Assembly: GCA_965178125.1 (NCBI GenBank)
Contig: OZ237735.1
Span: 2,170,001 to 2,234,000 of the forward strand
From: Bilabrum cf. latius
Taxonomy: Eukaryota
DNA length: 64,000 nt
Direction: 5' to 3'
Positions 27,201 through 48,277 of the stretch are shown here, piece by piece. Each line of letters begins with the position of its first letter. The stretch's first letter is position 1. Position numbers and translations under genes: made by a program. The notes beneath the pieces were generated by a model that did not search any database, was not told where the DNA came from, and worked only from the letters and a program-made list of their open reading frames with translations.

Positions 27201-30200
27201 AGAGTCTCGTCCATTGCCTGACTTTGACCTTGAACGCACACTGAGACAATCTGGTCCAGAAGAAAGTGTTCTTCGCATGGTCTTGGTTCGTGCCTTACGG
27301 CCCGACCGGTTGGAGGCAACGGTGCTGCAGTGCAGCGCGCAACTAGCATGGATTCGCCCTCTGCAGCGGGTGGCTCTTCAGCCGGAAGCTCCTGTCCTTA
27401 CCATTCTTGGTGGCTGCAGGGGGCGACCTGGACCTCTACAGAGCGTTGCGCCAGGAGACATGCCTCGCAAGCCTGGCACTGACCTGTTTGCAATTCTAGA
27501 GACTGACGAGCGCGCCGGGGCCGGTGGCTCCATGTCCGTAGCGGCTCAAATGACACCATAGATGGTGAGTCTGACGGGCACCTCAGGCGGAGCGATCCCT
27601 TCAGACAGCTACGAGGACGACGTTTAGCAGAAACGAGGGTATGCGCTGTTATCTGGGACGTCTATGCCTGGAATTGGGGCAGATAGTATATCTGATGACC
27701 GCATCAACGCCATTAGCTAGCCAGCTGTTCTTGCTGCCGAAGCAGGCAGCTACCGGCCTGTGCTTGTCCTGCTTCCACCGGGCTCTGAGAACCCCAGGCT
27801 GACGCTAGAGACCGCTGCTCGCAAGGCCCAATCAACGCTTGTTGTGGCTCCCGTGGGTGGCGGCAGCGGTAAGGAAATGAGCAGCCTTGTGAGAGGTGCT
27901 GCCAAAGAAGGGGCCTGGCTGCTTCTTGAGAATTGCCATTTGGACCCGCGGTCGACAGCCGCGCTGATGCCCACCATTGAATTCCTCGCAAATGCGCCAC
28001 GGCTGACCGATTCATCAGAGAGTGGAGAGGAGCAACAGCAGCGAAGGGAGGCTATTTAGATTCCAAACGCGCCAGAGCCATCCAGCCACATGCTTCCGCT
28101 CGAGCATTGGGAACGGAAGCACCTGCTTGGGGGAGCCGATATGCAGCAGGAGGATGCAGGCGGTGATGCTTCGGCTCAATCGGCTCACCGTCCGTCGCAT
28201 GCCGACGAGTGCGTGCACCCATCGTTTCGACTGTTCCTTACAACCTCCTCCGCCGGCTACCTGCCAAGAGAAGTCGTGGAAATGTGCGTGGTGGCCTCGG
28301 CCAGCGTGCGTCAGGGCGTGCGCGCCGCTCTGCAGATTGCCACGGCTGACGGTGGTCCGATATCTCGGGACACGCTGGACTATGCAGAAGAAAGCGGAGA
28401 TGAGGACCAAGCGAGGGTGTACCTTGCTACCATTTACAGCCTTGCCTTTACGCATGCGGCCCTGCAAGAGCGCGGGCATTTCGGTCCCGTCGGGTGGCAG
28501 GCGCCGTATTCGTTCCAGACGTCAGACCTTGCGTCATCACTTGACTTCTTGCAGGTGTCCACAGGGCTGGCGGAGGCGTGCTCAGAGAAGCTAAGGATTG
28601 CGCGTCTGGCGGAAGAGCGTCGTCGAAGGGAGCTGCGGCTGGAGGAGCAGCGCCAAGACTCCGCTGGTGCGCCGGCTATGCCTGAGGATGCGGTAGCAGA
28701 CAGGCTTCTGAGCGCCGCCGAAGGAAGGCTCGATGCCACAGTAGAAGAGAAAAGTTCGTCCTCCAGGGCAGCGTCAGATGCATTCCAGATCCAGCCGATG
28801 GACGGGGTGCTCGCTGTCGCTGCCCGGGCAGGGGCTGGTGGGATTGCGTGGTCCTCCTTGAGCCACGTTGTCGGCGCCATCCAATTTGGCGGTCGTGTGT
28901 CCGAGTCAATCGACTCGCAGGTGCTCATGGCGATGACTAGCCGGTGGGTGCAGCCGAGCATCATGGAACCAACGTTCTCGTTCTTGCCTTCGTTGTTGGA
29001 TCCTCAGGATCCCATTGGGAGCACCCCAATGGAGATCCGAGGCGGGATGACTCCATCCATGTCGGCATGGTCGCCCACTGGAGCTTCGCCTGGTGGTGCC
29101 CTTGGAAGCAGGCAGCCCTACGGGGTTCCGATCGCTCCCGATATGGCCACACTTCGGAGAGAGATCGCACAGCTGCCGGAGCGCGACCCGCCGGAACTTC
29201 TCGGCTTGCACCATGCAGCCGCGGAGGATGCCTCTTCAGCCCGTGTTGCGTCCTCGCAAACGACAGCAGCGGCTCTCGTCCCAACCCAGGCATTAGTGAC
29301 CGGTGTTGCGGGCGGAAAAAGTACCGCAGCAACAGCCGAGGGCGCTCCAGACCTATCCCAGCCTACGTGGTTGGCCACCGTTCTGTCGCTGCTCCCAGCA
29401 CCGTCGTTGCGCCTGGATGACGCAATCGCGCAGTCTAGGAGGCTCGAAGTTCGCACTGGTTAGCCCGCACTTGCGCGCTTCGTCCTTGCTGAAACGCAGC
29501 GCGTCGCGTTGCTCAGTGGCTTGGTTCGGGCATCTGTGAACCTGATAGCTGACGGGCCCGGCAGGGGCGGGAATTCAGGTGTGGACGAGTCCTCTGGTGC
29601 GCTGAAGAGGCAGCTTTCCGATGACTTCGCGGCGGGGCGGACCCCTCAGGCATGGTTGCGACTGGAAGAGTCTTTAGGTGAATCTGGCGGTGGCCTGTGC
29701 CACAGGTCTCGGAGCGCGGTGATCGCCGACGACGGCTCTGACGTGTCCTCTGTTCCGCTGGTACGATGGATGTCGGCGCATGCCTCGCGAGAGGAACAAA
29801 TGCGGAGCTGGCTGAGAGATGGGCCCCCCAGGGTGATTTGGTTGGCTGCAATTCTGTCGCCGCAGGCCATGCTTAGCGCACTAAAGCAAGACGCGCTTGT
29901 CTCCCTGGAGTCCGACCGTGTCAAGCAGTCTGGGTTCGGTGGAGATCCATCTGGAAGCGCGGCTAGAATGCCTGCGACTAAGCTCACGCTCGTGGATCTG
30001 CAACTAGCCGTTGTACCGACCGACGCGTTCGAGGATGGAGACATCAAGTCATATCCAAGCCGAGCGCTGCTGCTGGGTGGTCTGGTGCTGGAGGGGGCGC
30101 AATGGTCCTCGGAGGAACGTACGCTGAGCGACCTGCCACTTGGAGGACGGGTCCATCGCGCGCATGCGCCTCTTGTTGCGGTGGTTGCGAGGGCCGTGGA

Positions 30201-30486
30201 TGAGTCTGCCAGGCTTGCAAGGGAAGGGAACCTGTCGGTGACGCAGGGGCTCGCTGCAGCGGATGGAAGCAGCGGTCGGCGAGCTGGGCGGGGCGATGGA
30301 GGTGGAGCTGCTGGCGGGGCAGGTGGCAGTCCTTTCGACTCGTACCGCTGCCCACTGTACAAGTCACCCGCTAGGGGCAAGGCTGCGATGGTGACGACCA
30401 TTTCGATGACCACGCGGGACTAGCCGCCGGAGCACTGGGCGATGAGGGGGGTCGCCATGTTGCTTGGCGATCCCGACCTGGCTTGA
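9238..30486 (+). CDS. Axonemal dynein heavy chain, outer-arm gamma/DNAH5-8-like, divergent and insertion-rich (~7082 aa, apparently intronless)
   Basis: Single frame-1 ORF from ATG 9238 to TGA 30484 with about 55 in-frame TAG and no in-frame TAA/TGA. Motifs: EAKDNVRYL and SRFYNTTERMT (DHC_N1); FPRFYFVSN (DHC_N2); AAA1 GPAGTGKT, WGCFDEFNRI, HYDFGLR; AAA2 [25 protein letters not shown]; stalk coiled coil ~23700-24660; GLEDQL; GAWLLLENCHL; C-terminal YRCPLYK...HWAMRGVAML. Confidence 0.95.
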
Positions 30487-30677
30487 TTCGTGGCACTCTG
30501 CGCAGCAGCAACGAAGAAGTGCGACTTCAGCTCGCAGTTCATGGCTGTGGTTCAAGGCAGAGGCCGGGTTGGCGACGGCATTATCTGTCACCCACTGCCA
30601 GTGGAATGTGATGAATGAGCCGAGAACATACCATTTGTGTATTCAACCTGTCACACTTCCTTTCTTCGAGCAAAATT

Positions 30678-32399
30678 ATGGACGTCATTCAGAACTTATG
30701 CGGAGATTAGTTGGTTCAGTGCAAGCAACATGTTGATGACGTTGTAAGCGAAGCAAGAGGACTTGGGATCGAAGTTGGTGGCGCGGCGGACCTCCTCACT
30801 GAAACCACGAGAGAGAGATTACCGCTCGCAGAAACGACATCAAAGGCATTTTTGGTTTGTATACTATCAGTCATGTCCAACTCGGCGTCTGCGGGGGCAT
30901 GTGCAAAGCTGGCCAAGCTTCGGGAAGAGGTTGGCAGAGAGAGCATCGTGGTAATCCTGCTTCAGCAGGATGGGCTCAAGGCAGCAGAAGACATAGCGCT
31001 GAAGCATTGTTTCATGTTGCCAGTGGCCGCCTACGGCTCGGCTGATACGTACAGACAGTGTGAACTCGAGTTCCGCCAAGCCGCGGGCCTCGGACTAGCC
31101 TGCCAACCGCCAGAACTTGTCGTGTTTGGACGCCAAGATCTTGCGGATAGCTTCTGTTTATTTGGTACTGATGGTGCCGCTGCGCTTGCGGGCGGCTCGT
31201 ACAATGTTGCTCGATTTCCAGACTGGACGACCAACGCGCTCCTCACAAGCAATCCCATGCGGCCCGTGGCACCGGCCGAGGAACCTGACGGCGTGCTTGC
31301 TGCAACGATTGCCCATGAGTCTGCCATCCGATCTGGCATCATGCCTGGAGATACTTGCGTGGTTCGTATTGGTCCCTGTCGCGTGCCGGTGTGGGTAAAT
31401 CGCTCGGACGACCAGGACTCGGGCAGTGACGATGAAGTCGCCGCAGAGGGAGCAGCATCAAGCTCGGCTACGGAAGCATCCAGAGCTGCAGGCGCCAAGT
31501 CGAGCATGCCGGACCCCCTCGAGCTGCCTGTGGGCCGCTTGGTCCTGTCTCCCACCGCGACAGCCTGGCTGGTGCGCGACCTCAACAAGCGATCTGAACT
31601 TGAAATGCAGAGATCAGAACGTGCCGCTCCTTTCGATTCTTCTGCGGGTACACGGGGGCCAAGCGCTACCACAGAGAGCAAGATTGATGATGCGAAAGCT
31701 GGCGGTGAAACCGGTCCGGCCACGCGGACCCTGCGGCAGCTAGCCAAAGCTAGTGAATCGAAGGCGAGTGCGGCTGATGGATCTAGCGGCGCTACCAAGG
31801 ATGAAGTTAGCGTGGTCGTAGACCGGATAGATGAAGCACCAGTCGCCGATTGCGTGTGCATTAGTCCGATCGGTGCAGCGGGCAGCATGGCGCACTTGCT
31901 CGCACAGGAGGCCAAGGACCGAGCACCGGCGGCAAGTTCGAGGTCTAGCAGCGATACCAGCCAATCTGCTGCAAGCATTGCCATTGGTCACACGAGTCCA
32001 CTATTCTCCAAGTGTTTGGCGCAGCATTTTGGGCTCAAAGTGCACGGCGGTGGCAGTGCGGGAGGGATGACCGCAGCGGAGAAAGTCATGGCCGCATTGA
32101 CTGCCCAACAGCAGGCTCTTGATTCCAGTACCGGTGAATCTGGCGGGGACGGGAGCGGCTTGAACCTCGGTGGCTTGCAGACGGCAACCCTCAGTTGGCT
32201 AGAGCGGCTGGCCGGGGAGGCCGAGTGCAAGCAACGGCTGATCCAGTTTGGGGGGATCATCAGCGTGCGGGTGCCTGCTGGTGCGATGGGAGTTTCTTCC
32301 CCGAGCACTGACGAGGTAGCTCAGTTCACCGTGAGCGGGCTATGGCCCAGGTGCTCTGTGGCGTCGGTGGGGCCAAGCACACGATTTGAGCTGCTTTGA
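30678..32399 (+). CDS. 573-aa protein: N-terminal degenerate thioredoxin/nucleoredoxin-like region plus a CDC48/p97 N-domain-like region, no AAA ATPase
   Basis: ATG 30678 (MDVIQNLCGD-TAG-LVQC) extends the 562-aa ORF; TGA 32397. C-terminal half resembles CDC48_N/CDC48_2 (GIMPGDTCVVRIG...RLVLSP...CVCISPI...LFSKCLAQHF...RLIQFGGIISV...AQFTVSGLWP..VASVGPSTRF). Domain calls are by eye. Confidence 0.6.
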
Positions 32400-32921
32400 G
32401 TGACTGTCTCTAACACAACGTAGATTCAGATTGAATTGCCATTAGAGACAATGAATTTCAATACTTCAACAATTGGACAAACCCAGATTTGCTACTGCTT
32501 GCCCGTCAACAGCCTGTTGCCGCATTGGGGGGCACAGCACCTGCCTGCGAAGCACACGACAAAAATAGATTGGAAGATGGGAACTTGCAGATCCGACGAG
32601 GCGTTCCATACAACAACCCCACATTGACACCTAACACAAGCGTCCGATGTCCCAAAATGGCTCAGAGGGATCGATTAAGAGTGTTTTCATGCACGTGCAG
32701 CGCTAACAGCACGCTCTAAAACGAGGAATTGTGTCGACGATCGCTCGCCGACACAACATCATCGCCAAGAACACCGGACCAAACAGGGGCACACACAGCA
32801 TCAACACGCAGCAGTCAGCAAGCAAATGGATGGGTACTCTCTCACTGTTCTTGTTCGGCCATCGACCAAATGGGGTGCGCGTTGCCGCGGTCCCCAGGTT
32901 CGCCCTGCACGCGGTGCTGCA

Positions 32922-34741
32922 TTAAATGGGCACAATGGACATGCCTCCGCCGAGCTTCTTTCGCTTCTTCTTCTTTGGAGGGCCATCTTTCTTTCCTCCT
33001 CCCTTGGATTTGCCCTTGCTACCTTTCGTGTCGCCGGCGCCAGCGGCTGCAGCACCTGACTGGTCCCTGGCTGCAGCTTTCTTGCTGCCCTTTTTCTTCT
33101 GCGACTTTCGCTTGCCAGGCTTAACGACTTGCGCGGGCTGTGTCGCAGTGAGCCCGCCAGCCTGGCTCTCCTCCACTGCATCGGGGTTTGCGATGAGATC
33201 CACTACAGAGATGGGCACCTCGCCGGCCGCTCTGGCTGCCTCCTCCAGCTCTGCGGTGGCGGCTGCAGCAGCCTCTGGGAGTGCGTTGGCTGGGATCAGC
33301 ACGATTCGCCTGAACTCCACGATGGAAGATGGCTTGTCGGCTCCCGTGGTGACCGACGGTGCCTCGGATGCGATTCTTTCCGCATCCCCAGTTGCAGACG
33401 CAGACGAGGATGAGGACGACGCCTGGGCTGCAGGGCCTTGGCCATCGTCCGCGGCATCTGGCTTCCTTTTCTTGCCCTTAGCAGGCACGAGCACAGAGGC
33501 GATGGCATGGCTGCAGAGGTGCGCCTCGTCAAAGTGGAGGTGGTGCACGCCAGGATGGCCAGGCACGTCTCCCTCGGGCCCTGCAGCTGCAGCAGAGGAC
33601 GCAGACGGTGCACTGCTGGCACTGTGCCCAAAAGAAGACGACTCAGCTGCTGCCGCCGCCGACATTGCCGACTTGTCTTTGAAGCAGCGAAACGACGCCA
33701 CGAAGTGTGTGTACCTCGGTGGCGGCTGCTTCGGCAAGCCTTTCGAGCTGGAATTTGACGATGCTGCTGCCTTGCTTGATGCAGATTTACCAGTCAAATT
33801 ACTACCATCTGAATCTGGCTGGTGTAGATAGCTCCACTCGAGGTCATCGGAGAGCGATTTGAGCAGGGTAGGAGCGAGCTCCGCTGGCATGTTGATGATG
33901 CGCTCCGAAACGAGCAGCCCGACCCTGCCGAAGCCGTGGCGGTCGCCTCGTTTAGATGATGCCCCGGAGTCTTCATCGGACTCGCTGTCGCTGCCAACGC
34001 TCTTTGCAGAAGCTGACAAGGCGCCGCTACCGGCAGATGCGAGCCGGAGGAATCTCTCCGCAGTGCGAAGCAACAGCCTCGCAGACTTTCCAGCAGTCAA
34101 AGACTTCTTCCTAATAAAGTGCAATATTTGTTGCACGTATCGATCTTTCTGCAATGGCAGCAAAAAGGCAAGAAATGGAGGAGTACAGATTTGACAGCGG
34201 CTTTTTGGTGCCCTGGTACGATCACGCTGGCATTCAGACTCACGCAATTCTCTTCCAAGTCCAAGACGGTCGCTAGACTGTACACATCATCATCGCCAGG
34301 GACTTTCACTGTCGTGCCGACTTCCGGCTGCGCTACGATCGCGTCAGACATCTTGCTGCTGTCGAAAGCGTCTGATTCACCGGGGATGTAGTCGACCAGC
34401 AACCGCTTGACCGAATGAAAATCAATAGGGGCAGGATCGTAGAAGTTAAAGTCGAACATGCTATGGCTTGCTTCGGTGTTGCCTTGGTTGGGGCCCAAGG
34501 GAATGTCCTCCTCTTCCGAATCGCTGTCGCTCGAGTCATCCGCGTATGCCTCTGATGCACCCTACTGCGCACCCTTATCCTTAGCGTGACTGTAATCATC
34601 GCTTTCAGTGCCATCGCTGAGAGGCAAAGCATCCTCTTCCGGCTCTGCACTTCGCTTCCGACCTTGTTCTTTCGCCCCTGCTGACATCTCCTTGCGAGAC
34701 CGCTTTCGCCCGATGCTTCGAGATACAGGCTTACCTGACAT
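32922..34741 (-). CDS. BCP1: BCP1/BCCIP family protein (574 aa, 2 exons)
   Basis: ATG 34741, acidic N-terminus with one TAG (34562), FDFNFYDPAPIDFHSVKRLL, IVAQPEVGTTVK..DDDVYSLATVL, VGLLVSERIINMPAELAPTLLKSL, HFDEAHL. Intron 34149-34243. Ends at TAA 32922-32924. Confidence 0.92.
34149..34243 (-). other. Spliceosomal intron (95 nt) in BCP1
   Basis: GTGAGT donor, pyrimidine tract, TTGCAG acceptor; joins LDLEENC to KDRYVQQIL and links the two ORF frames. Confidence 0.88.
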
Positions 34742-35216
34742 TGCTAATATACAATAAAAGAGCGAATGTGTAAATATTTGGCGCAGTATTCGGCGGCACT
34801 GCGCTTTGCGCCGCCGCTTTATGTGTTCGTGCGACGATCGTGCGGTGTGCGGCGCCGCGCATGGAACGTTCGATTTCATGTGGTTCCGCAACGTCGAACC
34901 AACCCAGGCGCGAGTGCCCAGATTGGCGGCCCCTGGCTGTTCCTCTCGCTTGTGTACCGTGATATACGGTCTATATCTCGAAATTTCTGTCTTGTTTGCA
35001 CTTTCTGGCTGATACTGTAAAAAGAGAGAACCATTAGGGATACTCTGACCTTGATCCATTGCAATGGGTGATGCAAGCGCGTCCAGGCGATTAGCGGAAA
35101 TTATTTCTAGCCTCAAAGGAGGCAGATAGATCATGCTTAGTAATTAGCTCGTGCGAGCGAGTCAGAGATCGTCAAGGTCCACAAAACGGAGCAGGGCACG
35201 AATCGGCCAGCGAGAG

Positions 35217-38165
35217 ATGGAAGCGAACCAAGACGAGCACTTGATCTCTGCACTGGAAGCCGTCAACCTCATCAGAAGATAGGAAGGAGATAGTATGCAT
35301 ATCCAATGGAACGGTGCAGCTGGCTTGAGAGAGTTTGGAAATCCAGATTGCTCGGCAGCCGCGCTGCGAGCGCTGCGAGCGGTTGAGGGTGCGCATCGAT
35401 CCGCCGATTCCATTGAAGCCTAGCGGCAACGGATCGCTAAAAAGCTATTAGCTCTAGTTGCAGTCCGTGAGGTCAACCGAGAGCTATCGCAGGAACAGCG
35501 AGAAGGCCAGAGCACGGTCGCGCCTAGCACGCCACCCCGAAAGACAAGCACTTCCCCGCGCGGCCAGGCCGCAGCAATCGAAGCGGCCCAGACTCTGTGG
35601 TCGCTAGCTGCCACGCCAAGCGTAGCACCAGCCAGCCCCAAGTCGGCGCGCAGTTTTGGCATGTCGCCGCACCGGGGAGACACCGAGCGTCACAGCCGGC
35701 AAGGGGTGCTTGCTGGCTCGGGGGCCCGTAGAGGCAGGGACCGCGCGGGAAGTATAGAGCTAGATGGCACGTCCTGGGATTAGGTGCAGCTGCAAATGAC
35801 GAGCGCTAGCAGCTAGGACGGTTCAGATGACGACGGTGCTGCGGGTCTGGTCGCGCCGGACAGCCAAGGCGGTGGCGGTGCCGGTGGCACGTCTCGCCAC
35901 CAGCGCAGCCTCAGCATCGACTGGTAGGAGCCCTTAGTGGGGCAGCATTCTGCCCAATCAACAGGCCAATCGAAGAGTGCAGCGTCCGTAGGATCGGCAA
36001 TGATGACGCACGATCGCGAAAACGGTCACGAGCATGGTGAATACGGCACGCGTGCTGGAGGTGAGCCAGCGTTTGGCGCCGGAACTGGGTGGGATTCCCC
36101 GCAGCTCACACCACAGCGGCTCGAGGCAGCCGCTGACAGCGCAGTAACGCCAATGCGCATGAATGATGCTGCTCTGCAAGCCAGTGGCGCCGCTGCTCGA
36201 TCTGACAGCGCGGTCGGGCAGCCACCTCAGCTCCAGGCTAACGTTAGGCTGCCCGCGTCTGCGGTGCTGCTACCGCGGCTGCAACCTGCGATCTTGTCGA
36301 CTGGTCTCAGGTATACCAACAGTGGAGGCCATTCCGAGTCTGGTGCCTGGCAAGCGCATGCCACCGCTGCGTAGCTTGGCTTCGATCGGATTCACGTTCG
36401 ACCTGCGTTGTGCCCAGACGCGCTGCGGCAGGCCAGGAGCTTCAGCCTCCCAGGGGATTTCGACGCCGAGGTTCTGTCAGAAAAGGCCACGGCTGCAGCT
36501 GCTGCAGTTGCCTGGGTCGCATCCATCGGAAATTTGGAAGCCGGCGCGGCCAGATCAGCTCTGCGCTCGGCTGCGTCAACTGCCGGACATCCGGCTCCTG
36601 CGTTGGCCGCAGACCGCATCCTCTCGGCCGTGCAGCAGGCGCATGGGGCACAGGGAGATAAGCTCGAAAAAGTGCGTTTGCTGCTGTCCCAAGAGAAGCA
36701 ACCGGGATCCGCTGCCGCCTCTCTGTCCGGCCACGAGCAAGATTGTTTCTCTGCCGCCATGTGCGACATCGTTTCTGACTTCGACAGCGCCGTGCGCGGC
36801 GCACTATTGAGCGGCAGAGCGGAGCAGCTCCGTGCGCAGAGCAAATAGGCTAGAGAAGCATTGCTGCAGACGCCTTTGCTGGTTTCGGCACCTGGTGGCA
36901 GCCACCGGCGGCCGTCTGCATCTGCATCTACCCCAAGACGCTCCCGTGAGGGCGGACCATAGGGGCATTCACCGCAGCTGCACGACGCTCTCGTGATGTA
37001 CGCAACTGCGCTGGGAGTGGAAGCAACAGTGGCGTAGAGTACTGTTACTGCAGTCCTTTCGGCCATGCGCCGTCAGGGCAAGGTACTTGCAAGCGCGGCA
37101 ATACATGCTATGCGAGATGTGGCCAAGCGCTACGGCACAGGCAGGCAAGCCACGGAAGCAGAGCAGGCAAGGGTCGAGTCCCTGATCAGATCCATTGCAA
37201 CGCAATCGGCATTGCCCTCCGCGGTATCTGCTTCAGCCCCGAGACGTGCCTCGCAAGCGCCCTCGATGCAGGCTGCTGGGAGTGCATCGAAGGCACGGCA
37301 GAGCAAAAGTGCATCTAGGCTATCCGCTGCCCGACCGCCTGGCAGTTCTCCAGGCACATCTTTGAAGCCCAACGCTCGAAGCGGTGGGGAAAAGAAGGCG
37401 ATGAGTGATGACAAAGAGACAGGTGCACAGTCTGGAACCGGGGGTGGGCAAGGCGATGGTTCCTTGCCGGGCGTGCCACAAGTACGTCGCCGCGGTGGGG
37501 CACTTCAAGCGCTGTCCCAGGCCGCCGGTGGTCCCCACGAGCGAACTGCGCGTGCCTCATCTAGTAGCTCATCGGGAGCTGCGGCCGTTCTGAGCGGCGA
37601 GGTGCTTGCTGTGGAGGATCCTGCCAGGTCCTAGCAGGCGAGCGGAGCGGCGGGTGCCGTCGCACACTCCGCTACTAGTACCCCGCCGGAGACTGCGCGC
37701 TCTGCCAGCTCATCCACTGCTGCTGCATCCAATAAGAGCGAATCAGTCGCCCCGCCGCCACCTGGCGATTCTCAAACCGATGGGGATGGGGCACGCGGCG
37801 ATACCACGGCCGACGTGATGCGCCTTGCGGAAGCGACCGCGGTGCGAGCAGTTAGGGCGGCGCAAGCAGTTGGGCTCTCGCTCGGGCAAGTGCTAGAGAG
37901 GGAGGAAGCAGACCCTGACTCGATAATTGCGCGACATAACTCGCGGGGAAGTGACGGAGAGGGTGGGTTGAAACAATCTGTTTATCGAGAAGCAGAGGCC
38001 GCGAAGCAAACGGCTGTGTAGCTGGTGGACGAGATGAAGGCGCTGCTCGCGACTGCCGAGCAAGTGCCTGAGGATGCAAGGGCGGGACTACTCAAGCAGC
38101 ACACAGCTGCAGCTTAGGTGCTTGCTCGTTCCATGGTTCTAGCAGCCATAAAATTGGAAGAATAA
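35217..38165 (+). CDS. Uncharacterised 982-aa Ala/Ser-rich protein
   Basis: ATG 35217. ORF pieces at 35937, 36408, 37065 and 37815 share one frame, joined only by TAG. Ends at TAA 38163-38165, followed by AT-rich intergenic DNA. No family recognised. Confidence 0.75.
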
Positions 38166-38355
38166 CCTGCATATCTTGAATAGGTCTGTTAGCAAACATC
38201 AAAATACGGACAGACACAGCATCACGCTGCCTTTGCACACAAAACGATGGGTCGCCTACCTCTGTTGACATGTTTCCAATCGCTGCTAAACAAAGATACT
38301 CGCGAAGACGCTGCGAGGCGGGGCCAGCGACTCTGCCGACAGTCACCTGCATCGC

Positions 38356-38935
38356 TCACGCGATCTGCTGCAGCCGAACAGCGAGCCAAACAGCAGATAT
38401 CGTTGCGATAATCCCAGGAGAAGCAATGTTCCCGATGGTCATATTTCCGAAAACCGTGAACTCGATTCCGAAAAACGTAAGGGCGGCGACGAAAGATCCG
38501 AAAGTTGCAGCCAGAATCGGAATGCTATCAATGTACACAATCGATAGGACACAAAGGAGACACGTGATTGTAGTCCATACGGCAAACAGTCTTGCCAGCA
38601 GTAGACGGACTGCGCGAATCGGGAGTGATCGGCGCAAAGTGGAGTGTGAGGGAGACACCATTTCGTACAAGCAAGCTGCCACACCGAATCCGTATCTTAC
38701 CACGCTTCAGGGCAGAGACTGCGTCCATCAAGCTCTTTGTTTGAGTTGATTCAGAGTCTTCACCAGTCTTCTTGTCATTGATCAACTCAATGGCCTGCAA
38801 CGAGGCATCCTCGACCGGGCTGAAGACCTTCCCCAAAAGCAAGCCCGGCACAGCGTATCCGAGCACCACAGACAGCGTCCGAAACCCCGCCACGATCCCT
38901 AGCCAAATTTTCAATAACAAAACGGCATCCACCAT
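38356..38935 (-). CDS. ERG28: Ergosterol biosynthesis protein 28 family membrane protein (162 aa, 2 exons)
   Basis: WLGIVAGFR...LARLFAVWTTITCLLC...ATFGSFVAALTFFGIEFTVFGNM....SPGIIATISAVWL matches the ERG28 pattern. Intron 38610-38700; TGA 38356-38358. Confidence 0.9.
38610..38700 (-). other. Spliceosomal intron (91 nt) in ERG28
   Basis: G|GTAAG donor and CGCGCAG| acceptor; joins ALKR-V-RLLLARLF in frame. Confidence 0.88.
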
Positions 38936-39062
38936 TTCGTTTCTCTATTTATCCGTATGGAAGGTGCTGAGGTTACCCGAGCCGAACGAAAGTTCGTTCC
39001 CCTACTGCAACTTGATTGAAGTCCCTCATCGAAAACATTCCCAATTGACAAGCGGTTACCGA
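38936..39062. promoter_or_regulatory. Putative compact bidirectional promoter (127 bp) between ERG28 and the Asteroid-like gene
   Basis: Divergent ATGs at 38935 (-) and 39063 (+); AT-richer than the flanks; contains CAATTG at 39042. Confidence 0.5.
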
Positions 39063-41990
39063 ATGGGAGTCTAGGGACTGCTTCGTTGGGTACGATGCTA
39101 GCCTCTCCTATTCGGTGGTCCGATCGCGTTGTAGCCCGGAGATCACGTCTCGATCGATGCGGCCGCGCTTGCCCATTACCTTTGCTTGGCAAGCAGCGGC
39201 GATCTGCTGTCTATTATTGATGACGATGGCCTTGGAACGCTAGATAGGCAGTTTGGGGGTGAATATGCTGAGTTGTGCGATAGGGTACGGTGCTTCTTCT
39301 TGCGGCTACGATCAAGCGGAATCAAGTCGACCTTCGTGCTCGACGGCAACAAGTCTGCGCTGAAGCACGGGACTCATCTGTCGAGGAGAGAATCCCTTAT
39401 TTCAGAGTGCAAGCATGCACAGCTTGCCAACTCGCAGTCCCTTCTTCGAGGCCCCGTTTCCGGACGGGCGACCGCTCGCGAGGAACTGAACCGAGCGAAG
39501 CGGGGCCGCGCGCCGAAACCATTGCTGCTTGTTGAAGCCGCCGCTGTGGCACTGGCGGAATTAGGGGCCCATCTTGTTGTGTCTGCGTCTGAGGGAGACA
39601 GAGCTGTGGCGCATGTAGCAAGAAAGTACCGAAGCCGCTGCATCCTATCGAACGACAGCGACTTTCTCGTGTATGACACGGGGGCGCCACTGGTCCCGCT
39701 TGATTCCTTGAATTTTACGCCCGTGCCACCGCCCCAAGGCTGTGCCAGCGTGACAAGTAGCGGTAGCACAGATCCTGCTGCGGCAGGCGGCAAGCAAGCA
39801 CCTGGCTATGTTGATGCAGCGACTGGCACGGCGCACACATTCACCATGCATGGACTTGCTCTGCGCAGAGACAAACTCGTTTCAGTGCTGCGCGTGCCCG
39901 GTGACTCTCTCGGAGCCCTTGCTTTGCTCACTGGGTGCGACTACAGTCCCATGGCGAGCGTTGACTTGGCCTGGCTGCACGGGGCAATGCAGGCAGCCCT
40001 GCTGGACCATGCTCGCTGGGACCCGAGCAAGCGCAAGAAAACGGGAAAGCCTGCACAAACGGAAGCTAGCTCAGGTGCTTGTGCGGGGTCAGGCAGTACC
40101 GACCAAGGCGACAAACCCCCGGGCGGTGAGGTCCTGGTGGCAGGCAAGATTCCTGATAAATACCACGGCAAGATATGCAACGCAAAGCAGGCGCTGGAAC
40201 TCACCTCGGCGTATCTTCGGGCATTTTGGCCCGAAGTATGCAGCCCTGAAGAAGGAATCGTGTTGGTCGTGGCGTGCCTGTCTCGCGCGATCCGAAGGCA
40301 CGAAGCAATACACCAGTACTGGACGATGAAAAGATCAAAGCAGCGAATGGCAGCAGAGCGTGCCGCTGCCGAGAGGAGAACGGCCGGAGCGAAGCACAAA
40401 GTAAGCAAGCACAAGCATAGAGGGCGTGGCAAAAAGAGGCGCACGGAGCATAGCGCGCAAGGCGGTGGAGCTGGTACTGACAGCACCCAGCAAGCCGACC
40501 AGCCTGAGGATGCTCGTGCTGAGGCTCTCCAGGCAGCTGTGGCTGACGCAGCCCGGGCTGCAACACAGCTGCTTGTGCCAGCTGCCGGAGCTTCACAGCA
40601 ACCACTGGCAGCAACAACAACTGGTGGATAGAGCTCTGCAATGAAGCCTAATCCTGCTGCTGAGTCTGCCGATGGGTGGTTGTTGGGCACTCTCCGCGGC
40701 GTGCTCGGGCTCTTGCACAAGGTCCAGCACGAGTACACTGGATTTGGCTCTCACGATCTTCTTGGTGCAGACAGTTCGGCTAACGCTCTATCGTTGCTGT
40801 GCAAAACGTGCGACATGCACGAATCTAGAGTCTACATGTCTTTCGCGCTGCCGGCGCTGATGGAACCGGCGGGGGAACGGAGGCTAGACAAGGACAGACT
40901 GCTGGACTCTGAACGCGGCAATCTCACACCATCATCGGACATGGCTGATGAAGTGAGCTCCGTCATGCGTGCATTGGATTCAGCTGGTGCAGAGTAGAAG
41001 GAGGATGTGGGCAGCCGAGATTCTGCGACGCTAACTTCTGGTGGCTCGGTAGAGCCTTTCAACACGGTGATGGATGCCTCCAGAGCCATCATCGCGGGCT
41101 TTCCTTGGCATATGCGATCACTTGGAGAGGCACTGCTGCTTGGACCTGCAGTGCAGATGGCCGGCATGAAGCGCAGCTTGGATGCTTGTGCTGCTACTGC
41201 GTTGGCGCCAGCAAATCGCGCCCTTAGGCTGTCGCTGAAGGCTGTAGTATCGCAGCTGATCGTCAACATTCTTACTAGTTGTGATGGTAATGGCTTGAAG
41301 TCGGCCGCAGGGGGCCACATGGACCGCCCAACAACCCAGAGCTAGGATCAAACAACCACTCACAGCTCCGAGCTCGCTGAGGCGTTCCGGGCCGTAGTCC
41401 GAGTGGCATGCGACGAATTACACGATATGTGCCGAAGAGGCCAGATTCCGCAACGAAGCAGTTCAACTGGCGATATACTATTCAGAAATGCATCGGAACC
41501 AGGTTATGAATCGTCGTCTAGCTCGTCTGCGGGTAGTGGCACTCGTTGGAGACTTCCAGCCTGGTGCGTGGCGGATTCATGCGTCTGTATCGCTGTTGGC
41601 TGTCTGCGGTGGGAACAACGCAGACAGTTTGACGGTGTTACTGTGCCTGAGGCTGCGCTCGTTGGCACTGGCAGCACGACGGTAGTCCGAGCTGGTGCGG
41701 GGGTATTGCCGACGGCGTCATCGTCCAGCAGCAATAGCGGTGGCAGCGGCAGCGGCGATTTACCGGCCACGCCGGTGGCAGTTGGCACCTTGACTTCGGT
41801 GGAAGGGGCCGAGGGCTCGCAGATGGTCCCATACCGGATAGCTGGCTGCATGGACTGGCTGCCTATGCTAAGTTCGACTTCAATTGCCGAGATACTGCTA
41901 GCTGACGGAGCAGAGCCACGGGCAGCAGTGGCCCGAACAAAAACTGGCGCGGTCATTCAATAGTGGGCTGTGGCGTTTGAGTGCTTCTGA
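39063..41990 (+). CDS. ASTE1: Asteroid-like (XPG/FEN1 PIN-fold) structure-specific nuclease, 975 aa
   Basis: Starts MGV(TAG)GL. Motifs VSIDAAAL, FGGEYAELCDRVRCFFLRLRSSGIKSTFVLDG, SEGDRAVA, ILSNDSDFLVYD, LALLTGCDY. One frame joined by TAG to TGA 41988-41990. Confidence 0.85.
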
Positions 41991-42109
41991 CCACTAATGC
42001 GACCGTCATCTGGCCCATGGATCAATCCGCGTCGTGCCACAGTGCAGTGCAATCCATCCGTTGCCGATGGGTGGATTGATGACAAATCTCGAATTACTAC
42101 TCCACTTCA

Positions 42110-45100
42110 ATGAAAAGGCAGTCCAGGCAACAATAGTCTTGGAAGGTAGATGTTGCTCCTTCTGCTTCGCTGCCTGTTGTTTTGACAGAGAGTGCCCTCC
42201 GCGAGCAGTCCAACTTTGCGCCTGTACAGCCCTTGCTCGACTGCGCTGTGGAGTTACGCCCACTGATTGCAAAGCCTTCTATATCTGGAGCACGCAGAGG
42301 GTCGGAATTCTACCATTAGAAAGGGTATACATTACGCACGCAGGGCAACCTTGATGGTGCCATCGTCGCATATTCCAAAGCGATTGAGGCAGACCCGTCG
42401 AACAGCTTTCCTAGCGTTTTCAATCGTGGATATGCGCACGATCGAGCAGGGCATTTGTCCCTGGCACTTGAAGACTATGATCTGGCCAGCAAACTACAGA
42501 CTTAGAATGCCTTTGCTCATTTCAATCGAGCAACCATTCTCTTGCGCTTGAACCGACCGGGCGAGGCAGCGAAAGCCCTTGATCGGGCAATAGGCATCGA
42601 GAAGATTGTAGAATTTTATCGAATGAGAGCCATTGCACGGCGCAAGACTGGAGATTTCATGGGCGCGGCGGCTGATGTTGTTTCGTCTCGTCAGATATCA
42701 GGAGCTGCTGCGCGTGCTACTAAAGCCGACAAGGCAGCCGCTAAGGCGATGGCAGACGCAGAAAAGAAGGCTAAAAAGGCAAAGATGAGCGTTTTGTCAG
42801 CCGCAAAGTCGTGGGGCAAGCAATTTGGCGGTTTAATGAAGCATGCAGGGTCGGACGGGGGCGGTTCGGGCAGCAGCAGCGGCAGCAGCAGCGATGAAGA
42901 GATCGATGCTGGTGACCTGCGCGTGCTTGCAACTGGATCCGAGCAAGCACCTAGCTCTCCAAGAGCTGGCGGAAAGGGCGCCCCTCGCTCTAAGTTCACA
43001 GCAGCACGCGAGGCGAGGCTTGCTCGCACGGGTGTGGACTGCGCTGCTGACCGCTCGTCTGGCACTGCGTGGGTGCGAGCGGCGGCGGCTGCACCACGGG
43101 GCAGTGAATAGGCCGTGCCAGGAGCATCGCGCTGGTCCTCCGGCTTTGGAAAGCTGTCTGACCGTCCTCTGTTGGGGCTCGGCTTGACCGGTGGCGCAAC
43201 GGCAGCGGCCCCCGTTCTGCCTGTCGTTGACACGCCCAAGAATGCCCCCAGTAGGAGCAAGCCGAACGGCTGGGACGCGCTTGGCGGGGCAATGAGCACG
43301 GCTGGGGGTACCACATCGCGACGAAGTTCCCCCACAGCTGCAAATCTGCTTCGAAAGACGACAGGGCTTCAGCGCAAGCAGACCGGAGGGTTGCAGCGCA
43401 AGAACACGAGTGCGCTAGAACGGCTCGTGCGGAAGAGGGGAGCAGGGCGGGAGGTGCGACGAGCAGCCAATGCGGTTGCAAGCGCAGCATCTGAAGCGGC
43501 AACCATGTATGCAGAGGGCGGGGCAGTTGCGAGCATGGGCCTGTTCGGCGCTGTCATGGAAGAGCCAGGTAGCGCCACAACAGAATCAGACTCTGGTTCA
43601 CCCAACGTGCAAGGACGGCATGCAGCGGATGCCGGCACCGACACAGACGCGCGTGCTAGTCGTGATAAGACGGCCCCTGCGCGTGTTCCTTTCCTTCGGA
43701 TCCCTGAGCAGACTGAGGGCACTGATGCTAGCAGCGAGATTGGCAGCTTCACCTCGGGGATACCCGGGTCGCCAGTTAGCCCAGTGAGACTAGGGTCAGC
43801 GCGCGTACCGTTCAGGCTCGGGGTTCGTAGTCTTGCAACTGACAGGCCGCACTCGGCCCGGCCAACAATGGCAGCCGCAGCTTCAGCTAGTAGTAGGGTC
43901 ATGTCTCGAGCACAGCAACTGCGTGCCGAGACACGGTCATTCCAACGAAAGCTTTCTCCGCGCCTTCGCAAGGTCATCCGAGGGCACAAGTCTGCACTGC
44001 GGCCTCGTACCGCCACAGTGCAGACATGGGAAATCCAGGACGAACGCAGCCGAGCTGATAGACTCGTGCACGAATCTGAACTTGCGGGATTGCACCCTGG
44101 GACAGGCAGTGCGATACAATATAGAGCTCGGCCGCAAACCGTTGACGCCTCAGCACCAAGGGTGCCGCGACCGCCTCTCTAGGCCAAGCCAAGTGCGTCA
44201 AGGCACCACCGTCAGCCTCCTGGTAGGAGGCCAGTCTCCCTGCAGCATGCTCGACGCAATCTGTCGATCATGGAGAGTCAGGAGTAGCAGAAGAAAGACA
44301 GAAAGCGAGCCGCTTCTGCCACTAAGAGTGGGAGGTAGTTCACCAAGCAGATCAACGCTGTTGTGCAGCGACGAAGAGAAATCGAGGCGTAGCAGGTCAG
44401 GCCGGGCAAGGTGGGTGAAAAAGCCGACACTGCTGCCCTTGCGGTTGCAGCCAAGCATGGCACAAGCGATATTGTGGCCCGAACCAAACGTGCACGGGAG
44501 CTGGCTGTGGCGGATAGGCTCGTGTTTGCCCAAGGCAGCACCTTTGCCCCGTTTGCGGTACGGCCCGCAGAGTCCACTGCAACGTCCAGCTCTATGGCGG
44601 CCAGGTGTCTGCGCATACTGCCTCTATACCTCACAGAGAAAGAGAAGAAGAGGCACTCAATCTCCAAGTTCGGGTACAGTCGTCGACAGGAAGGCCTGGC
44701 AGCCAAACGAAGGCAGCGAGAAGTGCTGGCGCGTGGGGGCACGGGCGCTTCGATGCTTGGTATTGGAATGTCGATGGACGATATGACGTCTGGGAAAACA
44801 GCACAGCTCACAGCTCACAGTGTCATGGGTGCAGATTCCAGAGCGGAACTTGGCAGCCCCTCAATGGCTAGCAGAGAAAGCGATGGGCAGGAAATACCCA
44901 GCGTCGACCTTCATGGTGTATTGTCCAAGCCTTCCGAGCTAAGCATCACTGATATATCTCGCGCAATCGACCGCGGAGATGCTGGAGCACAGGACTTGGC
45001 AACCCATTCTCTTCTGTACCATGCGGGAGTGCAAGGTGTCTCTGTAGACCTTACGTCTGAAGATATCACATTTCTGTGTGGCCTAGCTCAGAACGCCAAG

Positions 45101-48100: not shown

Positions 48101-48277
48101 GCAGCGCCTGCCGTGCCAGGCAGTGGAGATCCTTTCACTCTCGCAATCGATGCCCACGATCCTAGTAGACAGGATGATCGGCTCTACGATCCACTGGAGA
48201 GGTCCACATTTGTAGAGCAAGCACTGTCTGGGATGAGAAGGTAGCCATTTGTTGTCCGAAACAAGGTCCGGCGGTGA
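42110..48277 (+). CDS. ~2055-aa protein with N-terminal TPR repeats and two insertion-split cyclic-nucleotide-binding domains
   Basis: Frame 2 is open from ATG 42110 to TGA 48275 except for TAG. TPRs: KGYTLRTQGNLDGAIVAYSKAI, FNRGYAHDRAGHLSLALEDY, FNRATILLRLNRPGEA. CNB1: VFKQGSKSDDLLYIIVQGSV...GESFGQLAL. CNB2: FLRKLSMFEAC...VVKQGARLAGLVLIRRGRC...GDYVGE. Start is uncertain because a small 5' intron is possible. Confidence 0.85.

What the first reader, a model, noticed from the sequence alone, without database searches (positions are those of the whole stretch)
32922..38165. UAA and UAG are decoupled: TAA still terminates while TAG codes
Seen: BCP1 (32922) and the 982-aa gene (38163) end in TAA, seven other genes end in TGA, and none ends in TAG. 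I saw no in-frame TAA in ~60 kb of coding sequence. Established: most nuclear reassignments move UAA and UAG together (ciliate/dasycladacean/hexamitid code 6). UAG-only changes are rare, e.g. the fornicate Iotanema spirale, a rhizarian, and some phyllopharyngean ciliates. Inference: the GC-rich, intron-poor, Ala/Ser-insert-rich genes do not look ciliate or fornicate and may be stramenopile (bicosoecid-like). That would be an independent, possibly undescribed origin needing an eRF1 that reads UAA/UGA but not UAG.
Basis: partly seen in the sequence, partly recalled or inferred. Interest (0 to 1): 0.9.

Follow-up and report, generated by a model that had tools for sequence, protein, structure and literature searches.

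The report
Stramenopile reads UAG as glutamine
This piece of a protist (stramenopile) chromosome uses the stop codon TAG as an ordinary glutamine codon while TAA and TGA still end genes, a rare split of the two codons that seems not to have been reported in this major group of eukaryotes.

Summary
With TAG read as sense, the window resolves into a compact row of long genes, including a 7109-codon outer-arm dynein heavy chain and a Piezo channel. About 20,200 in-frame codons hold 166 TAG, 0 TAA and 0 TGA. Of 9 complete gene ends, 7 are TGA, 2 are TAA and none is TAG.

Both TAA codons are real ends. Coding signal collapses behind them. Spliced transcript-like contigs of the BCCIP gene stop before the next in-frame TGA.

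TAG aligns best with glutamine. Five dynein TAG columns are at least 97% Gln in 39 homologues, and Gln beats the next residue by 7.8 natural-log units. Transcript-like contigs carry TAG unchanged, so RNA editing is unlikely.

Dynein trees place the organism inside stramenopiles, beside Cantina and Hondaea (Bigyra grade), on a very long branch.

The code itself (NCBI table 15) is already known from Iotanema, Protocruzia and some phyllopharyngean ciliates. Eight literature searches found no stramenopile with a changed nuclear code. The tRNA-Gln(CUA) and eRF1 could not be examined because no whole genome is held.

Verdict: a new, independent member of a known kind of code.

The parts
32922..32924 (-). 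TAA stop codon of the BCCIP/BCP1 gene
   Evidence: First in-frame TAA/TGA of the spliced ORF. The coding score falls from +0.24 in the last 150 codons to -0.155 in the 151 codons up to the next in-frame TGA; the first percentile of coding windows is -0.021. Spliced transcript-like contigs end at 32845 (runs X7, X8) or 32515 (X5), before the next in-frame TGA near 32469.
32922..34741 (-). BCCIP/BCP1 gene: exon 1 is 34741-34244 (one in-frame TAG at 34564), the 95-nt GT..AG intron is 34149-34243, exon 2 is 34148-32922
   Evidence: Pfam BCCIP (PF13862) hits on both ORF pieces. The intron is skipped in contigs of 3 runs and kept in a DNA-like contig of run X6. The spliced frame is open. TAG position.
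38163..38165 (+).
   Evidence: The coding score is +0.25 in the last 98 codons and -0.09 in the 97 codons up to the next in-frame TGA. A convergent spliced gene (Erg28-like) has transcript-like contigs that begin at 38142-38191, directly at or behind it.
35064..38165 (+). Gene of unknown family with 14 in-frame TAG, ending in TAA
   Evidence: No Pfam family. Transcript-like contig 34947-37997 in run X5 has no differing letters.
9238..30486 (+). Outer-arm axonemal dynein heavy chain: about 7080 codons, unspliced, 56 in-frame TAG, ends in TGA. About 2500 residues are Ala/Ser/Gly-rich inserts compared with homologues of about 4600 aa
   Evidence: Pfam DHC_N1, DHC_N2, AAA_6, AAA_7. Best hits are stramenopile dyneins at about 40% identity. 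A 21,535-nt contig in run X5 reaches 30632. The C-terminus aligns to within 4 residues of the homologues' ends, and the conserved HW..RGVALL motif lies behind a TAG 20 codons before the TGA.
48423..61900 (-). Piezo-type channel gene: 35 in-frame TAG, ends in TGA at 48423-48425. Two inferred introns (60033-59938 and 59904-59810) flank a 33-nt exon (59937-59905)
   Evidence: Pfam Piezo_THU9_anchor, Piezo_cap, THU_Piezo1. PDB Piezo1/2 matches. Intron model from the sequence: GTGAG...TCGCAG, 96 and 95 nt, frame kept over 4442 codons. The introns are inferred and have no read support.
3055..8934 (+). Gene of unknown family with 26 in-frame TAG, ending in TGA
   Evidence: No Pfam family.
30678..32399 (+). 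Gene of unknown family, ending in TGA. The ORF's single TAG, at codon 32 (about 30708-30710), lies downstream of the inferred start at 30678
   Evidence: Transcript-like contig 30656-32419 in run X5 ends 20 nt behind the TGA.
38356..38945 (-). Erg28-like gene with a 91-nt GT..AG intron (38610-38700), no TAG, ending in TGA at 38356-38358
   Evidence: Joint seen in 3 runs. Spliced ORF. Pfam Erg28 (PF03694), E 5e-14, profile positions 40-110 of 111.
39063..41990 (+). XPG/Asteroid-like nuclease gene with in-frame TAG (including the 4th codon, MGV-TAG-GL), ending in TGA
   Evidence: Pfam XPG_I_2, weak: E 3e-5, just under the cut-off. Transcript-like contig 39049-42097. Start codon.
42110..48277 (+). 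TPR plus cyclic-nucleotide-binding protein gene with 19 in-frame TAG, ending in TGA
   Evidence: Pfam TPR_1/2 and cNMP_binding..

Best explanation
The window is nuclear DNA of a fast-evolving stramenopile of the Bigyra grade, with a compact, intron-poor genome. The organism translates UAG as glutamine and still terminates at UGA (the main stop here) and at UAA. This is the code of NCBI table 15.

Shown here:
- UAG is an ordinary sense codon, about 0.8% of codons and about 16% of the inferred Gln codons.
- It is present unchanged in spliced transcript-like contigs.
- It is read through even 20 codons before a true stop.
- UAA and UGA never occur in frame, and both close genes.

Inferred from what is established for other UAG-only lineages (PMC5304391, section 9):
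- A tRNA-Gln with anticodon CUA, probably a mutated copy of tRNA-Gln(CUG), reads UAG. It cannot read UAA because C34 does not pair with A. That is what separates the two codons.
- eRF1 has lost or weakened its recognition of UAG while keeping UAA and UGA.
- The change arose independently of the ciliate, fornicate, rhizarian and green-algal cases.
For: TAG is sense. ORFs of 7109, 3813, 2064 and 1977 codons are open only if TAG is read. There are 166 TAG in 20,193 in-frame codons. Pfam and PDB homology runs across the TAGs in the dynein and in Piezo.

TAG is Gln. In a MAFFT alignment with 39 dynein homologues, 34 of the 56 TAG columns were occupied in at least 70% of rows.
- Gln has the best likelihood, 7.8 natural-log units over Lys and 8.6 over Arg.
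- Five TAG columns are at least 97% Gln (37/38, then 39/39 four times). Two more are mostly Gln (23/30 and 30/38).
- BLAST-based versions give the same ranking: 7.1 units with the 6 closest homologues and 2.9 with all 21.
- Of 56 columns that are at least 80% Gln in the homologues, the window has Q at 25 and TAG at 5.

No RNA editing. 22 of the 24 in-frame TAG in 30000-42500 lie in transcript-like contigs of run X5, and no differing letters were listed.

TAA is a stop. There are two gene ends, a sharp drop in coding score behind each, BCCIP contigs that end before the next in-frame TGA, and 0 in-frame TAA against about 65-105 expected if the two codons were coupled.

TGA is a stop. There are 7 of 9 gene ends. 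The dynein ends 7 residues after the last aligned column, where the homologues have 4. The Erg28-like gene ends at profile position 110 of 111.

TAG is not a context-dependent stop in the dynein. Conserved C-terminal sequence follows a TAG that lies 20 codons before the TGA.

Stramenopile placement.
- Named best hits are Achlya, Triparma, Aphanomyces, Pelagophyceae, Ectocarpus, Phytophthora and Cantina.
- IQ-TREE with LG+C20 PMSF puts the sequence in an 8-row stramenopile clade (100) and a 3-row clade with Cantina and the unnamed P0072 (96).
- A 40-row FastTree gives a 6-row clade with Cantina, P0072, Hondaea and two unnamed rows (99).
- The sequence stays with Cantina (99) when P0072 and P0058 are left out.
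Against: - The evidence comes from one 64-kb window: 9 complete gene ends, only 2 of them TAA.
- Four conserved TAG columns are not Gln: Arg 38/39 and 36/39, Lys 32/36, Glu 37/38. With all 21 homologues in the BLAST version, Gln leads Lys by only 2.9 log units.
- The amino acid rests on one protein. Piezo TAG positions fall at unconserved sites, and the other genes have no usable homologues.
- In two genes the last TAG is 8 or 10 codons before the TGA, with tail scores of +0.03 and -0.08. TAG could end those genes.
- The runs taken as RNA are labelled only 'RNA?', and X5 'probably DNA', by the tool. I read them as transcripts from the removed introns, the gene-sized pieces and the gene-wise depth.
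- The placement rests on one gene with a very long branch (2.46 changes per column) and an odd composition.
- No tRNA gene lies in the window, and eRF1 could not be reached.
Confidence: 0.8

Rival explanations
1. Ambiguous code: UAG is both sense and stop, decided by context such as closeness to the mRNA 3' end, as in Condylostoma, karyorelicts or Blastocrithidia for other codons.
For: In the XPG-like and the TPR-cNMP genes the last TAG lies 8 and 10 codons before the TGA. The tails behind them score +0.03 and -0.08, which is not clearly coding. With only 9 gene ends, 0 TAG ends is weak evidence.
Against: In the dynein a TAG lies 20 codons before the stop and is followed by the conserved HW..RGVALL C-terminal motif. 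In the 1977-aa and 1036-aa genes the tails behind the last TAG (24 and 15 codons) score +0.32 and +0.22, which is coding-like. No gene needs a TAG end.
Confidence: 0.07
2. Ordinary ciliate-type code 6: both UAA and UAG mean Gln, and UAA is merely rare in this G+C-rich genome.
For: G+C is 0.57, and G-ending codons are preferred over A-ending ones.
Against: - A-ending synonyms are common: CAA 299 against CAG 550, GAA 387 against GAG 619. About 65-105 TAA would be expected beside the 166 TAG, and 0 are seen.
- Two genes end at TAA, with loss of coding signal behind it and transcript-like contigs that stop before any TGA.
- Loci of code-6-like organisms at G+C 0.51-0.53 still carry in-frame TAA beside TAG in the same gene family.
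Confidence: 0.02
3. UAG is sense but encodes another amino acid: Lys, Arg or Glu, or Leu or Ser as in the rhizarian exLh and Scotinosphaera.
For: Four conserved TAG columns hold Arg (2), Lys (1) or Glu (1). With the 21-homologue BLAST set, Lys is only 2.9 log units behind Gln. AAG and GAG are one mutation away from TAG.
Against: - Gln leads by 7.8 log units over Lys, 8.6 over Arg, 9.0 over Glu and 10.3 over Ser. Leu is not among the best eight.
- Five TAG columns are at least 97% Gln.
- TAG is found at 5 of 56 Gln-conserved columns. It is not among the five commonest window residues at the 88 Lys-, 97 Glu- and 89 Arg-conserved columns. An earlier count gave 1 of 52 Lys and 1 of 55 Glu columns.
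- Ordinary Q codons of this divergent protein also sit at Lys and Arg columns (6 of 88 and 3 of 89).
Confidence: 0.07
4. Not a code change: pseudogenes, assembly errors, or UAG edited to CAG in the mRNA.
For: None found. It is listed because in-frame stops can arise in these ways.
Against: - 166 TAG and no TAA or TGA in 20,193 codons is not the pattern of decay.
- The same sequence is held at 99% or more in contigs of several runs from several studies.
- Spliced transcript-like contigs carry TAG unchanged at 22 of 24 sites.
Confidence: 0.01
5. The code change is real, but the lineage and its code are already described in a paper outside the searched library, so nothing is new.
For: - The sequence is held by at least 8 public runs of 2025 from 4 studies (P1-P4) with shares of 0.47-1.00, so the organism has been sequenced deliberately or repeatedly.
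- Subscription journals are largely missing from the library.
Against: - Eight full-text searches found no stramenopile nuclear code change.
- The December 2024 discussion of UAG-only codes lists no stramenopile, and 'stramenopil' has 0 occurrences in it (PMC11687900).
- No protein above 44% identity to the dynein was found among 1.84 billion representatives.
Confidence: 0.25

Closest known systems
Iotanema spirale (Fornicata): UAG=Gln with UAA and UGA as stops (Panek et al. 2017, PMC5304391; abstract and section 9 read)
   Same: The same reassignment: UAG to glutamine while UAA stays a stop. It implies the same mechanism: a tRNA-Gln(CUA) that cannot read UAA, and an eRF1 with weakened UAG recognition.
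   Different: Iotanema is a metamonad; this organism is a stramenopile, so the origin is independent. In Iotanema UAA is the primary stop (abstract); here TGA closes 7 of 9 genes. The T32G change in the GTS motif of Iotanema eRF1 could not be looked for here.
Phyllopharyngean ciliates Hartmannula sinica and Trochilia petrani, and Protocruzia tuzeti: UAG=Gln, table 15 (McGowan et al. 2024, PMC11687900; passages read)
   Same: UAG is translated as glutamine and UAA is kept as a stop. The evidence is of the same kind: internal UAG at conserved Gln positions (58-70% there).
   Different: These are ciliates (Alveolata). 93.5-100% of their C-terminal alignments end at UAA (passage). Here TGA dominates and G+C is 0.57.
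Rhizarian exLh (UAG=Leu) and Scotinosphaera (UAG=Ser)
   Same: UAG is separated from UAA in a nuclear code.
   Different: A different amino acid. Leu and Ser fit the TAG columns here much worse than Gln: Ser is 10.3 log units behind, and Leu is not among the best eight.
Code 6 (UAA and UAG both Gln: many ciliates, hexamitids, some ulvophytes, oxymonads, an aphelid)
   Same: UAG to Gln, probably by the same route of a mutated tRNA-Gln.
   Different: UAA is not reassigned here: 0 in frame, and 2 gene ends.
Mitochondrial code changes in Labyrinthulea (Stramenopiles), Zihala et al. 2020 (seen only as a cited reference)
   Same: The same supergroup.
   Different: That is an organellar code with other codons involved. 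The genes here are nuclear: dynein, Piezo, and spliceosomal introns.

Membership tests
NCBI translation table 15 type code (UAG=Gln; UAA and UGA stops) | UAG occurs in frame inside conserved protein-coding genes | tested here: met
   166 in-frame TAG in 20,193 codons. 56 of them lie inside a dynein heavy chain whose Pfam domains and homologue alignments span them.
NCBI translation table 15 type code (UAG=Gln; UAA and UGA stops) | In-frame UAG corresponds to glutamine in homologues | tested here: met
   Gln has the best likelihood, by 7.8 log units over Lys across 34 columns and 39 homologues. Five columns are at least 97% Gln; four conserved columns are Arg, Lys or Glu. One protein only.
NCBI translation table 15 type code (UAG=Gln; UAA and UGA stops) | UAA is absent from reading frames and terminates genes | tested here: met
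   0 in-frame TAA. 2 of 9 gene ends are TAA, with a drop in coding score and transcript-like contigs that end before the next TGA. The sample is small.
NCBI translation table 15 type code (UAG=Gln; UAA and UGA stops) | UGA terminates and is not in frame | tested here: met
   0 in-frame TGA and 7 of 9 gene ends. The ends of the dynein and the Erg28-like gene agree with their homologues or profile.
NCBI translation table 15 type code (UAG=Gln; UAA and UGA stops) | UAG is not used as a terminator | tested here: inconclusive
   0 of 9 ends need TAG, and the dynein reads through a TAG 20 codons before its stop. In two genes a TAG lies 8-10 codons before the TGA and cannot be judged.
NCBI translation table 15 type code (UAG=Gln; UAA and UGA stops) | A tRNA-Gln with anticodon CUA | not testable with these tools
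   No tRNA gene in the window (ARAGORN; Rfam). No whole genome is held.
NCBI translation table 15 type code (UAG=Gln; UAA and UGA stops) | eRF1 N-domain altered at the positions that read the third base (GTS, NIKS, YxCxxxF) | not testable with these tools
   eRF1 is not in the window and no genome is held. The motif list is taken from PMC5304391, section 9.
Code 6 (UAR=Gln) | UAA in frame at Gln positions | tested here: not met
   0 TAA in 20,193 codons, against about 65-105 expected from A/G-ending codon ratios.
Stramenopiles (Bigyra grade) | Orthologous protein nests within the stramenopile clade | tested here: met
   Dynein heavy chain: stramenopile clade 100, with Cantina, Hondaea and unnamed rows 96-99. 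This is a single gene on a very long branch. No 18S or multi-gene test was possible.
   No sequence named as a bicosoecid was among the rows of any tree. The nearest named row is Cantina marsupialis.

The most novel reading that the evidence does not exclude
[quoted passage not shown] It is an independent, so far unpublished origin of the rare UAG-only reassignment (UAG=Gln; UAA and UGA stops). It occurs in a fast-evolving Bigyra-grade flagellate with a compact, intron-poor genome in which TGA, not TAA, is the main terminator. No close relative of this organism was found in the protein and contig collections searched.
Probability: 0.55. Interest if true: 0.75.

Novelty: new member of a known kind. 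Interest (0 to 1): 0.7.

Why it matters
UAA and UAG nearly always change meaning together. Each independent case in which only UAG changed is a natural experiment on how eRF1 and a tRNA(CUA) can separate the two codons. That question also bears on engineering eukaryotic codes.

A stramenopile case would add a whole supergroup to the map of nuclear code variants. It would also differ from the other UAG=Gln lineages in relying mainly on UGA for termination. This helps test whether the choice of the remaining stop codon, or G+C content, steers such changes.

There is a practical consequence. Gene callers that use the standard code shred this organism's genes. That may be why no close relative of its dynein appears among 1.84 billion protein representatives. 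Its sequence is present in runs filed under several different organism labels, so mis-annotation could spread.

Tried and rejected
- Whole genome: none is held for this window, so eRF1, tRNA genes, 18S and genome-wide stop counts were out of reach.
- tRNA and Rfam scans of the window found nothing.
- Relatives that share the code:
  - The search for related loci with the dynein AAA1 region kept 80 of 588 confirmed stretches in metagenome contigs, at 28-40% identity.
  - In genome contigs it gave 26 loci, all at or below 49% identity.
  - None of the 106 loci is a close relative, and none shows in-frame TAG without TAA beyond a single codon.
- Piezo as a second protein for the meaning of TAG: one weak homologue only, and PDB alignments put the TAGs at unconserved sites.
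- RNA evidence: no run is on record as RNA, so 'no RNA holder listed'. I used three runs labelled 'RNA?' that behave like transcript assemblies. A poly(A) tail or exact 3' ends cannot be read from contigs.
- Considered and rejected:
  - Phage-type TAG recoding or a prokaryotic origin, because the genes are a dynein, Piezo and spliceosomal introns.
  - A mitochondrial origin, for the same reason.
  - Pyrrolysine- or selenocysteine-like rare recoding, because TAG is 0.8% of all codons.

Full report
WHAT THE WINDOW IS

The window has G+C of 0.56-0.60 throughout. Under the standard code it breaks into 50 ORFs of at least 200 aa, the longest 562 aa. With TAG read as sense it becomes a tight row of long frames of 7109, 3813, 2064, 1977, 1081 and 1036 aa and others. 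These hold 56, 30, 19, 26, 7 and 14 in-frame TAG.

Pfam identifies several of them:
- an axonemal dynein heavy chain (DHC_N1, E 6e-130; AAA_6; DHC_N2)
- a Piezo channel (THU9-anchor, E 4e-54; cap, E 3e-34)
- BCCIP/BCP1
- a TPR plus cNMP-binding protein
- a weak XPG-like match
- a Calx-beta-like repeat protein

These are nuclear eukaryotic genes. No tRNA gene or Rfam family is present.

GENE MODELS FROM PUBLIC RUNS

Twelve listed runs hold the stretch 31500-39500 or part of it, eight of them with a share of 0.47 or more. I laid four of them on 30000-42500.

Runs X5, X7 and X8 come from two studies. The tool labels them only 'RNA?', and X5 'probably DNA'. They give gene-sized pieces whose depth differs by gene (8 to 180 in X5).

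Two short GT..AG introns are cut out in all three of these runs. One is 34149-34243 (95 nt) in BCCIP.

Run X6 carries a colinear 6990-nt piece that keeps the BCCIP intron, so it behaves as DNA. I therefore read X5, X7 and X8 as transcript assemblies. That is an inference.

The dynein appears as one unspliced 21,535-nt contig that reaches 30632.

No differing letters were listed for any run. 22 of the 24 in-frame TAG in this stretch lie inside X5 pieces. Editing of UAG in the mRNA is therefore unlikely.

The small gene is Erg28-like (PF03694, E 5e-14, profile positions 40-110 of 111) and ends in TGA.

The ORF 59990-61942 is most likely the N-terminal part of the Piezo gene. Two GTGAG...TCGCAG introns of 96 and 95 nt flank a 33-nt exon and keep the frame open over 4442 codons. 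This is inferred from the sequence and has no read support. It moves the TGA at 59990 into an intron.

THE OBSERVATION

In 20,193 in-frame codons there are 166 TAG, 0 TAA and 0 TGA. Complete gene ends number 9: 7 TGA, 2 TAA (BCCIP at 32922-32924; the 1036-codon gene at 38163-38165) and 0 TAG.

A-ending synonyms are not rare: CAA 299 against CAG 550, GAA 387 against GAG 619, AAA 171 against AAG 440. A TAA with the same meaning as TAG should therefore appear about 65-105 times.

I compared this with 106 dynein loci fetched from metagenomes and from contaminated MAGs. Forty-seven of them carry in-frame stop codons, and most of those have both TAA and TAG, also at G+C 0.51-0.53. None has more than one TAG without TAA.

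ARE THE TWO TAA REAL ENDS?

I built a codon log-odds score trained on four long genes against their off-frames. It averages +0.14 in coding windows, with a first percentile of -0.021. The results are:
- BCCIP: +0.24 in the last 150 codons; -0.155 from the TAA to the next in-frame TGA.
- The 1036-codon gene: +0.25 in the last 98 codons; -0.09 from the TAA to the next in-frame TGA.

The spliced BCCIP contigs end at 32845 (X7, X8) or 32515 (X5). The next in-frame TGA would be near 32469, so no alternative stop lies within them.

Directly behind the other TAA, contigs of the convergent Erg28-like gene begin at 38142-38191.

TGA ends are supported by homology. The dynein aligns to within 4 residues of its homologues' ends and stops 7 residues later.

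IS TAG EVER A STOP?

In the dynein a TAG lies 20 codons before the TGA, and the conserved HW..RGVALL motif follows it. In two other genes the tails behind the last TAG (24 and 15 codons) score as coding.

In the XPG-like and the TPR-cNMP genes the tails are 8 and 10 codons long and score +0.03 and -0.08. For these two, a TAG end cannot be excluded. A dual meaning remains a minor rival.

WHICH AMINO ACID?

I translated TAG as X and aligned the dynein with its homologues.

BLAST version:
- At columns at least 90% conserved in 21 homologues, TAG falls on Q four times, K once and E once.
- Gln has the best likelihood, by 7.1 natural-log units with the 6 closest homologues (27 columns) and by 2.9 with all 21 (24 columns).

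MAFFT version with 39 homologues, 34 of 56 TAG columns usable:
- Gln leads Lys by 7.8 units, Arg by 8.6, Glu by 9.0 and Ser by 10.3.
- Five TAG columns are 37/38 or 39/39 Gln. Two more are 23/30 and 30/38 Gln.
- Against this, two columns are Arg (38/39, 36/39), one is Lys (32/36) and one is Glu (37/38).
- Ordinary Q codons of this very divergent protein also sit at Lys- and Arg-conserved columns (6 of 88 and 3 of 89). I therefore read these four as substitutions.
- TAG makes up 5 of the 30 Q-or-TAG positions at Gln-conserved columns. This is close to its 16% share of CAA+CAG+TAG.

Piezo gave no usable columns. Glutamine is thus well supported, but from one protein.

WHO IS IT?

The best named dynein hits are all stramenopiles: Achlya, Triparma, Aphanomyces and Pelagophyceae, and Ectocarpus, Phytophthora and Cantina. 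Identity is about 40%.

A full HMMER pass over 1.84 billion representatives found nothing above 44% identity. No close relative with a predicted orthologue is therefore in that library.

Trees:
- FastTree with 33 rows puts the sequence in an 11-row stramenopile clade (100), with Cantina and the unnamed metagenomic P0072 (99).
- IQ-TREE with LG+C20 PMSF on 16 rows and 3913 columns gives a stramenopile clade at 100 and Cantina + P0072 + window at 96.
- With 40 rows that include two Hondaea paralogues, oomycetes, diatoms, chrysophytes and outgroups, two stramenopile outer-arm paralogues appear. The window's protein sits in a 6-row clade with Cantina, P0072, Hondaea_2 and two unnamed rows (99), apart from a 15-row oomycete + ochrophyte clade.
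- With P0072 and P0058 left out it stays with Cantina (99).
- Bigelowiella (Rhizaria), Cyanophora and the animals fall outside.

The branch is very long (1.4-2.5 changes per column) and the composition is odd. I take 'stramenopile' as well supported, 'Bigyra grade near Cantina' as probable, and 'bicosoecid' as untested.

HOW IT MOST LIKELY WORKS

The decoding itself is shown. The machinery is inferred from what is established for the other UAG-only lineages (PMC5304391, section 9, read).

A tRNA that reads UAG but not UAA must carry anticodon CUA. For glutamine the simplest source is a mutated copy of tRNA-Gln(CUG). eRF1 must stop releasing at UAG while keeping UAA and UGA. In Iotanema a T32G change in the GTS motif is the candidate. 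None of this could be tested here, because no genome is held and the one read-laying run can only lay reads on sequence that I already hold.

COMPARISON WITH WHAT IS KNOWN, AND NOVELTY

UAG-only reassignments in print are:
- a rhizarian (Leu) and Iotanema (Gln) (PMC5304391, abstract)
- Scotinosphaera (Ser), Protocruzia tuzeti (Gln) and several phyllopharyngean ciliates (Gln twice, Leu) (PMC11687900, passages)

In that paper 'stramenopil' occurs 0 times.

Eight full-text searches combined UAG, genetic code and reassignment with stramenopile, Bigyra, bicosoecid, Opalozoa, heterotrophic flagellate or 'translation table 15'. They found no stramenopile with a changed nuclear code. The only hit was a reference to mitochondrial changes in Labyrinthulea.

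The library lacks most subscription journals, and supplements were closed, so a report elsewhere cannot be excluded.

The code is therefore a known kind (table 15), found in a new and independent lineage. One difference stands out. Here TGA closes 7 of 9 genes, whereas UAA is the main stop in Iotanema and in Hartmannula and Trochilia.

VERDICT

It is a new member of a known kind. Interest is 0.7, limited by the single window, the single protein behind 'Gln', the untested tRNA and eRF1, and the chance that the organism's code is already in print.

Noticed in passing
window 9238-30486 (+): The outer-arm dynein heavy chain is about 7080 codons long, against about 4600 in homologues. The excess is many Ala/Ser/Gly/Arg-rich low-complexity inserts between conserved blocks. 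The gene is unspliced and appears as one 21.5-kb contig in run X5. Its branch in the trees is 1.4-2.5 changes per column.
   Followed up: partly
window 59810-60033 (-): Two inferred introns of 96 and 95 nt (GTGAG...TCGCAG) flank a 33-nt mini-exon. They join ORF 59990-61942 to the Piezo ORF and give a protein of about 4430 aa. There is no read support, because the region lay outside the stretch on which reads were laid.
   Followed up: partly
window 38356-38945 (-): A small spliced Erg28-like gene (PF03694) lies tail to tail with the TAA-terminated gene. Its transcript-like contigs begin within about 25 nt of that gene's stop codon, and in run X7 they overlap it. This shows very tight gene packing.
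   Followed up: yes
window 34149-34243, 38610-38700, 59810-59904, 59938-60033: All four introns, two seen in contigs and two inferred, are 91-96 nt long. They start with GTAAG or GTGAG and end with GCAG (TCGCAG, TTGCAG or GCGCAG). This uniform short class could help gene prediction in this organism.
   Followed up: partly
window 30656-32419, 39049-42097, 30000-30632: Transcript-like contigs end only 20-146 nt behind the stop codons, and neighbouring pieces are 24-254 nt apart. This fits very short UTRs and intergenic spacers.
   Followed up: no
runs X1-X12: Near-identical sequence is held by runs filed under at least four different coded organism labels, in four studies. The organism may travel with other cultures or samples. 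I did not pursue where it comes from.
   Followed up: no
window 3-2402 (-): An open-ended ORF encodes repeated modules of about 100 aa with weak Calx-beta, fn3 and LapA-like matches, all below the Pfam cut-offs. It looks like a large extracellular adhesin-like protein and has 4 in-frame TAG.
   Followed up: no
window 39063-39074 (+): The XPG/Asteroid-like gene has a TAG as its fourth codon (MGV-TAG-GL). The position is variable in the family as I recall it, which comes from no call. It shows that TAG is read right at the start of an ORF too.
   Followed up: no
loci L001-L106: Several MAGs filed as bacteria (rumen Bacilli, Clostridia and Elusimicrobia bins, and others) hold dynein heavy-chain contigs. 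Among the metagenome loci L001-L080, many dynein loci carry in-frame TAA and TAG. Both point to eukaryotic, probably ciliate, DNA; in the MAGs it is contamination of the bins.
   Followed up: partly
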